From the sequence record MN850609.1: 64,000 nt of DNA; one strand, written 5' to 3'. This stretch comes from Escherichia phage dhaeg. The notes below the pieces were generated by a model. It was not told the origin of the DNA and made no database searches. It saw nothing but the letters and a program-made list of their open reading frames with translations. Shown here one piece after another: positions 61,721 to 62,398 of this stretch (its first letter is position 1; the number at the start of each line of letters is the position of its first letter). The position numbers and the translations under genes are program-made.

Positions 61721-61943
61721 ACAAACTACCGAACAGAAACTGCAATCTGAAATCGTTCTTCTGAAATCCCGTATTCTTGATACCCAAGATGCCGTTGCTC
61801 AGGCTCAGCAAGAATCTCGTATCCTTCAGGAAGCCCTTGGTAAAATCTGCCGTGCAGTCGGTATTGAAGGTGAGCAGATTAAAATTGATGACATCATCGA
61901 TGCTGTCCAGGCCCTGATTCCAGAAGCTTCTGACGAAGAATAA
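61713..61943 (+). CDS. 57A: tail-fibre assembly chaperone gp57A
   Basis: 76 aa coiled-coil (T4 gp57A 79); overlaps the gene 1 stop. Confidence 0.7.
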
Positions 61944-62398
61944 TGAAAACCGAAGATTTTGCTCAAGGTCTATACGTTGCTGCAAAATTCTCTGAATTGA
62001 CTTTAGATGCGCTGGAAAATCTTCAGCGCACTTTAAAGGTTCCTAATCCAGTTCCTCGTGAAAAATTCCATTCTACAATCTGCTATTCAAGAGTCAACGT
62101 TCCATACACTGTTGCATCCGGAAGTTTCGAAGTTGCTTCGTCAGGACATCTTGAAGTGTGGAAACATGGTGATTCTCCTGTCTTGGTACTGGTTCTCGAT
62201 TCAGAGTATCTTAAATGCCGCCATCAGTATGCTCGTACCTTAGGTGCTACGCACGATTTCGATGATTACACCCCTCATATCACATTGTCTTATAATGTAG
62301 GACCTCTTACCTTTAGTGGAGATGTCCAGATTCCTGTCGTTTTAGATAGAGAATATAAAGAACCCTTGAAGCTCGACTGGGCCGAGGATTTAAAGTGA
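61943..62398 (+). CDS. acb1: 2H-phosphoesterase, Acb1-like (T4 57B-type anti-CBASS nuclease)
   Basis: 151 aa; two H-x-T-x motifs ([16 protein letters not shown]) spaced about 80 aa apart, the 2H-phosphoesterase hallmark; position after 57A as T4 57B. Confidence 0.7.

What the first reader, a model, noticed from the sequence alone, without database searches (positions are those of the whole stretch)
61943..62398. Acb1-like 2H phosphoesterase (anti-CBASS candidate) downstream of gp57A
The two H-x-T-x motifs, the ~150-aa size and the position after 57A match the T4 57B product, reported as Acb1, a nuclease that degrades cyclic-nucleotide immune signals. It is followed by two small paralogous ORFs (MKSYKEF / MKTYQEF) of unknown function behind duplicated promoter cassettes, which may belong to the same accessory region.
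Basis: partly seen in the sequence, partly recalled or inferred. Interest (0 to 1): 0.5.

Follow-up and report, generated by a model that had tools for sequence, protein, structure and literature searches.

The report
Phage Acb1 anti-CBASS nuclease gene
This is the ordinary T4-type phage gene 57B, whose product Acb1 destroys the cyclic-nucleotide alarm signals of the bacterial CBASS immune system. It is already well characterised, and the two small genes after it carry the leader of "internal proteins" that are packed into the phage head.

Summary
The ORF at 61943-62398 (+, 151 aa) is real and is an ortholog of phage T4 gene 57B, which encodes Acb1. It is 85% identical to the biochemically characterised T4 enzyme. 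It matches Pfam Acb1 (PF23474) end to end at E 7e-59 and the crystallised Erwinia phage FBB1 Acb1 at E 3e-59. An AlphaFold model superposes on PDB 7T26 at 1.0 A rmsd. The HxT/HxT catalytic tetrad, the four base-stacking aromatic residues and the adenine-reading Glu are all conserved. Gene order (3, 1, 57A, 57B, ipI, trna.4) is that of T4. The window is a JS98/dhabil-like Dhakavirus.

The side remarks need correcting. The two small ORFs share only a 7-residue leader, which is the T4 capsid-targeting sequence. One of them (62683-62961) is a homolog of IPI, the injected inhibitor of GmrSD restriction. The other (62395-62604, GTG start) is a rare, often unannotated gene under purifying selection, and a candidate new internal protein. 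The duplicated cassettes are promoter/stem-loop (PeSL-type) elements. They flank the ipI-like gene and do not precede the first small ORF.

The parts
60959..61720 (+). Gene 1, dNMP kinase (context; first gene of the tightly packed string 1-57A-57B-ORF3)
   Evidence: Pfam DNMK at E 1e-89. Annotated as such in phage dhabil and in T4.
61713..61943 (+). Gene 57A, tail-fibre assembly chaperone. Its stop overlaps the acb1 start (TAATG).
   Evidence: Pfam GP57 at E 4e-27; PHROG 1002 'tail fiber chaperone'.
61943..62398 (+). acb1 (gene 57B): 151-aa 2H phosphoesterase, the anti-CBASS nuclease
   Evidence: Pfam PF23474 Acb1 at E 6.8e-59, profile positions 1-144 of 144. PDB 7T26 at E 3.1e-59. 85% identical to T4 57B. 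AlphaFold model with pLDDT 88.4 matches 7T26 at rmsd 1.0 A.
62069..62077 (+). First HxT motif (H43-S44-T45), equivalent to T4 Acb1 H44/T46
   Evidence: Read from the sequence. Invariant in 30 homologs. Numbering offset of +1 established. Catalytic role from PMC9117128.
62276..62284 (+). Second HxT motif (H112-I113-T114), equivalent to T4 Acb1 H113/T115
   Evidence: Read from the sequence. Invariant in 30 homologs. Catalytic role from PMC9117128.
62372..62395 (+). C-terminal lid segment (residues 144-151, including W146)
   Evidence: Aligns with FBB1 lid residues 145-152. pLDDT is low at residues 148-151, as expected for a flexible lid.
62395..62604 (+). ORF3: 69 aa, GTG start overlapping the acb1 stop (GTGA), GAGGA Shine-Dalgarno sequence 6 nt upstream. 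Candidate internal (head-packaged, injected) protein with the leader [10 protein letters not shown]|A. Function unknown.
   Evidence: PHROG 23867 at E 2e-42, unknown function. The leader matches that of T4 IPII/IPIII, MKTYQEFIAE|A. dN/dS is 0.05-0.17 against homologs. Homologs sit directly after acb1 in three of the four other phages examined, and between two annotated IP genes in the fourth, CF1. Not annotated in dhabil or RefSeq JS98.
62598..62657 (+). Promoter/stem-loop cassette 1 (PeSL type): -35 TTTACA at 62616-62621, TG-extended -10 TACTAT at 62639-62644, stem-loop at 62623-62650
   Evidence: Repeat family D1. Promoter scan. Fold of -12.2 kcal/mol, z -2.5. Aligned with T4 and JS98 counterparts.
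62683..62961 (+). ipI homolog: 92-aa internal protein with the leader MKTYQEF...ITE|A. Predicted injected inhibitor of GmrSD-type restriction.
   Evidence: Pfam IPI_T4 at E 1.5e-26. PHROG 4363 'internal virion protein'. 57% identical to T4 IPI. Annotated 'internal head protein' in dhabil.
62949..63008 (+). Promoter/stem-loop cassette 2 (PeSL type): -35 TTTACA at 62967-62972, -10 TACTAT at 62990-62995, stem-loop at 62975-63000
   Evidence: Repeat family D1, 83% identical to cassette 1. Promoter scan. Fold of -12.4 kcal/mol, z -2.6.
63032..63217 (+). trna.4-like small membrane protein. First gene after cassette 2, marking the end of the IP slot.
   Evidence: PHROG 1692. Annotated trna.4 in JS98 and 'putative membrane protein' in dhabil.

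Best explanation
The ORF is the Dhakavirus ortholog of T4 gene 57B and encodes Acb1, a small metal-independent 2H phosphoesterase.

Mechanism, by homology. During infection the enzyme binds the cyclic di- and trinucleotide second messengers made by host CBASS cyclases. It holds them in a U-shaped pocket between stacking aromatic residues (Y11, W73, F106, W146) and closes a C-terminal lid over them. E140 reads the adenine N6. The H43/T45/H112/T114 tetrad performs acid-base catalysis: the adenosine 2'-OH attacks the 3'-5' bond, giving a 2',3'-cyclic phosphate intermediate that is then hydrolysed to a linear 3'-phosphate product. [quoted passage not shown]

What is shown here: sequence, fold, catalytic and ligand-contact residues, and gene order.

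What is inferred from the T4 and FBB1 enzymes: the activity, the substrate range and the in vivo anti-CBASS effect.

Genomic setting. The gene sits in a tightly overlapping string (1, 57A, 57B, ORF3), so it is probably co-transcribed with these genes. It opens a small anti-defence island that continues with two genes carrying the capsid-targeting leader: ORF3 (function unknown) and an IPI homolog. The IPI-like gene is bracketed by two promoter/stem-loop cassettes.
For: - Sequence family: Pfam PF23474 Acb1 at E 6.8e-59, 198 bits against a cut-off of 27, covering the whole profile.
- Solved relative: PDB 7T26/7T27 (FBB1 Acb1) at E 3.1e-59 over residues 9-148.
- Closest characterised enzyme: 85% identity to T4 57B/Acb1.
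- Conservation: H43, T45, H112 and T114 are invariant in 30 homologs ranging down to 33% identity.
- Ligand contacts: Y11, W73, F106, W146 and E140 are identical to T4 Y12, W74, F107, W147 and E141 (roles from PMC9117128).
- Fold: the AlphaFold2 model (pLDDT 88.4, pTM 0.81) matches 7T26 at Foldseek E 1e-18, TM 0.87/0.96, rmsd 1.0 A. More distant matches are other 2H enzymes: BCSR5 phosphodiesterase, LigT and CPDase.
- Gene order is identical to T4: 3, 1, 57A, 57B, ipI, trna.4/.3/.2, tRNAs.
- Distribution: the family is found in 1471 phage records, mostly T4-like.
[quoted passage not shown] Nine further homologs all cleaved cGAMP and cAAA. T4 acb1 lies next to ipI in an anti-defence island (PMC9117128). 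57B becomes conditionally important on a CBASS host (bioRxiv 10.1101/2025.11.20.689424).
Against: - No enzyme assay or infection experiment exists for this particular protein. Activity and substrate range are inferred.
- Twenty-two residues differ from T4 Acb1, including the residue next to the first catalytic His (F42 versus I) and the 75-80 loop. Quantitative specificity could therefore differ.
- RefSeq and PHROGs still label the family 'RNA ligase'. That is an older annotation by similarity to LigT, not experimental evidence.
- NCBIfam and PADLOC hold no model that matches. This is uninformative rather than contrary.
Confidence: 0.94

Rival explanations
1. It is a generic 2H enzyme of RNA metabolism, acting on RNA ends (for example in tRNA repair) rather than on immune signals: a LigT-like 2'-5' RNA ligase or a 2',3'-cyclic phosphodiesterase, as the RefSeq and PHROG label 'RNA ligase' implies.
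For: PHROG 755 is described as 'RNA ligase'. RefSeq records name 57B 'RNA ligase'. E. coli LigT and Deinococcus radiodurans CPDase are distant fold matches (E 2e-4 to 6e-3).
Against: The LigT matches are weak (TM about 0.5, 13-15% identity). Acb1 matches with TM 0.87-0.96 and 66% identity. The 85%-identical T4 protein was identified by activity-guided fractionation as the cGAMP-cleaving enzyme, and its deletion sensitises T4 to CBASS (PMC9117128). The Acb1-specific ligand-pocket residues and the lid are conserved.
Confidence: 0.02
2. It is a true Acb1-family enzyme whose substrate preference has shifted in Dhakaviruses. It might favour other cyclic oligonucleotides or linkages, so its main target would be a different signalling defence from the CBASS types that T4 Acb1 defeats.
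For: There are 22 substitutions relative to T4, several of them in the 56-58 and 75-80 loops and next to H43. More distant 2H phosphodiesterases of phages show divergent specificities, according to the title and abstract of bioRxiv 10.1101/2025.08.21.671373.
Against: All nine residues reported to contact substrate or to catalyse are identical to T4. All nine additional, more divergent Acb1 homologs tested by Hobbs et al. cleaved both 3'3'-cGAMP and cAAA.
Confidence: 0.04

Closest known systems
Phage T4 Acb1 (gene 57B, NP_049750.1)
   Same: 85% identical over the full length. Same length apart from one extra N-terminal Met in T4. Identical HxT/HxT tetrad, stacking aromatics, adenine-reading Glu and C-terminal lid. 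Same position after 57A and before the internal-protein locus.
   Different: 22 substitutions, mostly at the N-terminus, at residues 56-58 and in the 75-80 loop. In this phage an extra 69-aa leader-bearing ORF is inserted between acb1 and ipI and overlaps the acb1 stop codon. T4 has only a 73-bp spacer there.
Erwinia phage FBB1 Acb1 (PDB 7T26 apo, 7T27 with 3'3'-cGAMP)
   Same: 63-66% identity, E 3e-59. The predicted structure superposes at 1.0 A rmsd. Same 2H fold and same catalytic tetrad.
   Different: One-residue indel in the loop after W73. At that position FBB1 has Phe where T4 and this protein have Trp.
Other 2H phosphoesterases: Burkholderia phage BCSR5 phosphodiesterase (9Q2G/9Q2Y), E. 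coli LigT, penguinpox cGAMP phosphodiesterase, coronavirus ns2 and rotavirus VP3 2',5'-phosphodiesterases
   Same: Same 2H fold with two HxT/S motifs. Several are also viral enzymes that degrade immune nucleotide signals.
   Different: Only 9-17% identity and TM 0.4-0.7. They belong to different sub-families with different substrates.
T4 internal proteins IPI, IPII and IPIII and their capsid-targeting sequence
   Same: ORF4 is 57% identical to IPI and keeps the ITE|A processing site. ORF3 has the 10-residue leader [10 protein letters not shown]|A, compared with MKTYQEFIAE|A in IPII and IPIII.
   Different: The mature part of ORF3 has no detectable similarity to any named internal protein or to any solved structure.
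PeSL (promoter-early stem-loop) cassettes of T4-like phages (Arbiol et al. 2010, PMC2839356; Comeau et al. 2014, PMC4122927)
   Same: Intergenic element of about 60 nt. It has an AT-rich lead-in, a promoter that fits the T4/PST consensus TTTACW-N17-TAYWAT, a stem-loop overlapping the -10 box, then a Shine-Dalgarno sequence and an ATG. It flanks a gene that varies between close relatives.
   Different: These particular copies have not been tested for promoter or terminator activity. The stem is not followed by a U-run, so terminator function is uncertain.

Membership tests
Acb1 (Pfam PF23474; Hobbs et al. 2022) | Full-length sequence match to the family profile above the curated threshold | tested here: met
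   198.2 bits against a cut-off of 27, E 6.8e-59, profile positions 1-144 of 144. 85% identical to T4 Acb1.
Acb1 (Pfam PF23474; Hobbs et al. 2022) | Compact 2H phosphoesterase fold | tested here: met
   AlphaFold2 model with pLDDT 88.4. Foldseek against 7T26 gives E 1e-18, TM 0.87/0.96, rmsd 1.0 A over 136 columns. This is a predicted structure, not a solved one.
Acb1 (Pfam PF23474; Hobbs et al. 2022) | Active-site HxT/HxT tetrad (T4 H44, T46, H113, T115) | tested here: met
   H43, T45, H112 and T114 are present and invariant in 30 homologs.
Acb1 (Pfam PF23474; Hobbs et al. 2022) | Base-stacking aromatic residues (Y12, W74, F107, W147) and the adenine N6 contact E141 | tested here: met
   Y11, W73, F106, W146 and E140 are identical to T4. 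Roles are taken from PMC9117128 section 6.
Acb1 (Pfam PF23474; Hobbs et al. 2022) | Flexible C-terminal lid | tested here: met
   Residues 134-151 are identical to T4 except for one conservative change, E148 for D. Model confidence is low at residues 148-151, consistent with flexibility.
Acb1 (Pfam PF23474; Hobbs et al. 2022) | [quoted passage not shown] | not testable with these tools
   Needs recombinant protein and TLC or HPLC. Inferred from the T4 enzyme and from nine other tested homologs.
Acb1 (Pfam PF23474; Hobbs et al. 2022) | Protects the phage from CBASS in vivo | not testable with these tools
   Needs a deletion mutant and CBASS-carrying hosts. Shown for T4.
T4 IPI (Pfam PF11634), for ORF 62683-62961 | Sequence match to the mature IPI* domain, plus the N-terminal leader with an ITE|A processing site | tested here: met
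   Pfam IPI_T4 at 92.6 bits against a cut-off of 25, profile positions 1-75 of 76. 57% identical to T4 IPI, with ITE-A aligned. Inhibition of GmrSD was not tested.
T-even internal proteins (capsid-targeting-sequence proteins), for ORF 62395-62604 | N-terminal capsid-targeting leader ending in Glu, the cleavage site of the gp21 prohead protease | tested here: met
   [10 protein letters not shown]|A compared with T4 IPII/IPIII MKTYQEFIAE|A. The leader is conserved in the homologs, for example MKTYQEFLTE. Only two such leaders occur in the 64-kb window. That gp21 cleaves after Glu and removes IP propeptides comes from PMC5694885.
T-even internal proteins (capsid-targeting-sequence proteins), for ORF 62395-62604 | Location in the polymorphic IP locus | tested here: met
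   Homologs lie directly after acb1 in EcS1, Gravdalen and Merlin, and between two annotated IP genes in Citrobacter phage CF1.
T-even internal proteins (capsid-targeting-sequence proteins), for ORF 62395-62604 | Presence of the processed protein in the virion and its injection with the DNA | not testable with these tools
   Needs mass spectrometry of purified virions.
PeSL regulatory cassettes | Conserved intergenic composite of a sigma-70-type early promoter and a stem-loop, flanking variable genes | tested here: met
   TTTACA-17-TACTAT with TG, found twice, fits TTTACW-N17-TAYWAT. The stem-loops fold at about -12 kcal/mol, z about -2.5. In the alignment with the T4 copies the promoter hexamers are conserved, while the bases predicted to pair in the window copies differ in T4; pairing of the T4 versions was judged by eye, not folded. 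JS98 has a different leader-bearing gene in the corresponding slot, between the cassette upstream of it and the cassette upstream of trna.4.
PeSL regulatory cassettes | Demonstrated promoter and terminator activity, and recombination between copies | not testable with these tools
   Needs reporter fusions and inverse PCR, as in PMC2839356.

The most novel reading that the evidence does not exclude
The unannotated 69-aa ORF at 62395-62604 is a previously unrecognised member of the T-even internal-protein repertoire. Its start codon overlaps the acb1 stop codon, so its translation may be coupled to acb1. On this reading it is packed into the head through its [10 protein letters not shown] leader, trimmed after Glu10 and injected with the DNA. 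There it would neutralise a host defence that has not been identified, for example a GmrSD-type restriction enzyme variant, as Ip1, Ip2 and Ip3 do in T4.
Probability: 0.35. Interest if true: 0.4.

Novelty: already known. Interest (0 to 1): 0.1.

Why it matters
The finding confirms that this JS98/dhabil-like coliphage carries the standard T-even anti-CBASS nuclease. It sits at the head of a small anti-defence island: acb1, a leader-bearing ORF of unknown function, and an IPI-type anti-restriction protein.

This is useful for annotation. Many database records still call the gene 'RNA ligase' or 'hypothetical protein', and several records omit the 69-aa ORF altogether. It is also useful for predicting the phage's host range on CBASS-carrying strains.

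It does not open a new question about Acb1 itself. The only element with some discovery potential is the small, rare, purifying-selected ORF that overlaps the acb1 stop codon.

Tried and rejected
- NCBIfam and PADLOC scans of Acb1, ORF3 and the IPI homolog gave no hits. Neither library appears to hold a model for these phage proteins, so the result is uninformative.
- An Rfam scan of 60000-64000 found nothing, and no tRNA lies in 63000-64000. The tRNA cluster of related phages starts just beyond the window.
- A Foldseek search of the ORF3 model against the PDB gave no match better than E 0.1, so it offers no clue to function.
- Deep searches for ORF3 relatives found only a handful. There were 5 clusters among 5.8 billion proteins. 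Among 1.84 billion representatives there were 5 hits at E < 1e-10, one of them an 836-aa repetitive protein that is probably spurious.
- I looked for a T4 late promoter (TATAAATA) upstream of the internal-protein genes. None lies on the + strand between 59002 and 64000.
- I suspected a homing endonuclease between genes 2 and 3, as annotated in dhabil. This window has none: the 278-aa ORF at 59450-60286 fills the position of gene 2, between the gene-4-like ORF (59013-59462) and gene 3. My first coordinates for it were wrong.
- Repoila et al. 1994 (PMC395341), the original description of the polymorphic IP locus, is not held in the library. It is cited only through later papers.
It was rerun without that sequence.

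Full report
**1. What is in the sequence**

An ATG-to-TGA ORF of 151 codons lies at 61943-62398 on the + strand. It contains H43-S44-T45-I46 (from 62069) and H112-I113-T114-L115 (from 62276), read directly from the sequence.

It is packed into a string of genes whose starts and stops overlap:
- gene 3 (60369-60959);
- gene 1, dNMP kinase (60959-61720; Pfam DNMK at E 1e-89);
- 57A (61713-61943; Pfam GP57 at E 4e-27);
- the ORF itself (61943-62398);
- a further small ORF (62395-62604).

The stretch 61000-64000 is 99.8% identical to Escherichia phage dhabil and 94-98% identical to other Dhakaviruses such as JS98, JS10, IME08 and CLB_P2. The window therefore comes from a JS98-like T-even phage. 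It is not dhabil itself, because it lacks the homing endonuclease that dhabil carries between genes 2 and 3.

**2. What the ORF is**

Every line of evidence points to Acb1.
- Pfam PF23474 (Acb1) matches end to end at 198 bits, against a cut-off of 27, with E 6.8e-59.
- The best solved relative is Acb1 of Erwinia phage FBB1 (PDB 7T26/7T27), at E 3.1e-59.
- The protein is 85% identical to T4 gene 57B. The T4 protein starts with two Met residues, so T4 numbering is window numbering plus one.
- Hobbs et al. 2022 (PMC9117128) found T4 57B by activity-guided fractionation as the enzyme that cleaves 3'3'-cGAMP, and named it Acb1. They solved the FBB1 structures. They defined the catalytic HxT/HxT tetrad (H44, T46, H113, T115), the stacking residues Y12, W74, F107 and W147, the adenine N6 contact E141, and a C-terminal lid. 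All nine residues are identical here: H43, T45, H112, T114, Y11, W73, F106, W146 and E140.
- Both His and both Thr are invariant in an alignment of 30 homologs that range down to 33% identity.
- An AlphaFold2 model built on that alignment has pLDDT 88.4 and pTM 0.81. It superposes on 7T26 with TM 0.87/0.96 and 1.0 A rmsd. More distant matches are other 2H enzymes: a Burkholderia phage phosphodiesterase, LigT, CPDase and viral 2',5'-phosphodiesterases.
- Gene order is that of T4: 3, 1, 57A, 57B, ipI, trna.4, trna.3, trna.2, then tRNAs.
- tblastn finds the family in 1471 phage records, overwhelmingly T4-like phages.

**3. How it most likely works**

The following is inferred by homology and was not tested here. 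The enzyme captures CBASS cyclic di- and trinucleotides that contain at least one adenosine. It strains the ligand so that the adenosine 2'-OH attacks the adjacent 3'-5' bond. The two His residues act as general acid and base, without metal. A 2',3'-cyclic phosphate intermediate forms and is hydrolysed to a linear 3'-phosphate product. This removes the signal before effectors such as Cap5, Cap4 or CapV fire.

For T4, the following have been reported:
- sensitisation of T4 delta-acb1 to CBASS;
- conditional importance of 57B on a CBASS-carrying host;
- predominantly middle/late transcription.

No late-promoter consensus (TATAAATA) lies on the + strand between 59002 and 64000. Given the overlapping start and stop codons, I infer co-transcription with genes 1 and 57A.

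**4.

The two small ORFs exist, but they align over only their first seven residues. That shared leader is the capsid-targeting sequence of T-even internal proteins. T4 IPII and IPIII begin MKTYQEFIAE|A, and T4 IPI begins MKTFKEF...ITE|A. These leaders direct packaging into the prohead core and are removed by the gp21 protease, which cuts after Glu.

*The second ORF.* Its true start is 62683, as annotated in dhabil. It is an IPI homolog: Pfam IPI_T4 at E 1.5e-26 and 57% identity to T4 IPI, with the ITE|A site aligned. T4 IPI* is the injected inhibitor of the GmrSD type IV restriction enzyme. Hobbs et al. already noted that acb1 lies next to ipI in an anti-defence island.

*The first ORF (62395-62604).* I take it to be a real gene, for these reasons:
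- It starts with GTG inside the acb1 stop (GTGA), and a GAGGA sequence lies 6 nt upstream.
- It matches PHROG 23867, of unknown function, at E 2e-42.
- It is under strong purifying selection: dN/dS is 0.05-0.17 and changes are dominated by third codon positions.
- In other genera it starts with ATG.
- Its homologs lie directly after acb1 in Kagamiyamavirus EcS1, Winklervirus Gravdalen and Moonvirus Merlin. In Moonvirus CF1 the homolog lies between two annotated internal-protein genes.

It is rare: 28 phage records, 5 clusters among 5.8 billion proteins, and 5 hits at E < 1e-10 among 1.84 billion representatives, one of them an 836-aa repetitive protein that is probably spurious. It is not annotated in dhabil or RefSeq JS98, and no separate feature lies under the match in IME08. 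Its predicted small alpha/beta fold (pLDDT 82.9) has no significant match in the PDB. The best reading is a new internal protein of unknown target.

**5. The duplicated cassettes**

The 60-nt repeat at 62598-62657 and 62949-63008 is 83% identical between copies. Each copy contains TTTACA, a 17-nt spacer, and TACTAT with a TG extension. Each also has a stem-loop overlapping the -10 box, folding at about -12 kcal/mol with z about -2.5.

Aligned with the equivalent intergenic regions of T4 and JS98, the promoter hexamers are invariant. The bases that pair in the window copies differ in the T4 copies; I judged by eye, without folding them, that the T4 versions can still pair.

This fits the PeSL (promoter-early stem-loop) elements described for T4-like phages, whose T4/PST consensus is TTTACW-N17-TAYWAT. 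PeSLs are proposed to mediate modular gene shuffling by recombination. Consistent with that, JS98 carries a different 97-aa leader-bearing gene in the corresponding slot, between the cassette upstream of it and the cassette upstream of trna.4.

The cassettes bracket the ipI-like gene. No copy precedes the first small ORF.

**6. Verdict**

The gene is a straightforward ortholog of a characterised, structurally solved and widely distributed anti-CBASS nuclease, in its canonical position, so it is already known. Interest is low. The only mildly novel element is the small leader-bearing ORF that overlaps the acb1 stop codon.

Noticed in passing
window 62395-62604 (+): A 69-aa GTG-start ORF with a capsid-targeting leader ([10 protein letters not shown]|A). 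It is not annotated in dhabil or RefSeq JS98, and no separate feature lies under the match in IME08, although it is conserved and under purifying selection (dN/dS 0.05-0.17). It is a candidate new internal protein.
   Followed up: yes
L003 2185-2478 (JS98), compared with window 62683-62961: JS98 has a different, unannotated 97-aa gene with the leader MKTYQEFIKE in the slot where this window has an IPI homolog. The slot is bounded by the cassette upstream of that gene and the cassette upstream of trna.4. This looks like a cassette swap in the polymorphic internal-protein locus.
   Followed up: partly
window 61943-62398; database records: RefSeq and PHROG 755 label this family 'RNA ligase', and many GenBank records say 'hypothetical protein'. 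Only a few records use 'anti-CBASS protein Acb1'. The older label is out of date.
   Followed up: partly
PDB 8HDS chain A residues 498-616 (Pam3 portal protein), compared with window Acb1 residues 38-148: The C-terminal part of a cyanophage portal protein aligns weakly (E 0.027) with Acb1, including both HxT/S motifs (HVTIAYS and HISLS). This may be a 2H-like domain fused to a portal.
   Followed up: no
window 59013-60286, compared with L001 810-2287 (dhabil): Dhakavirus dhabil carries an annotated homing endonuclease between genes 2 and 3. This window has none, so it comes from a different, closely related phage.
   Followed up: partly
window 59002-64000 (+): There is no T4 late-promoter consensus (TATAAATA) upstream of the internal-protein genes, even though their products are head components. 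Only the early-type cassette promoters are visible. How late expression is achieved is not evident from the sequence.
   Followed up: partly
protein cluster P0017: An Acb1 cluster 85% identical to this protein, with 167 member sequences, carries an NCBI name from an Enterococcus faecalis assembly. This is probably T-even phage contamination or a mislabelled sample.
   Followed up: no
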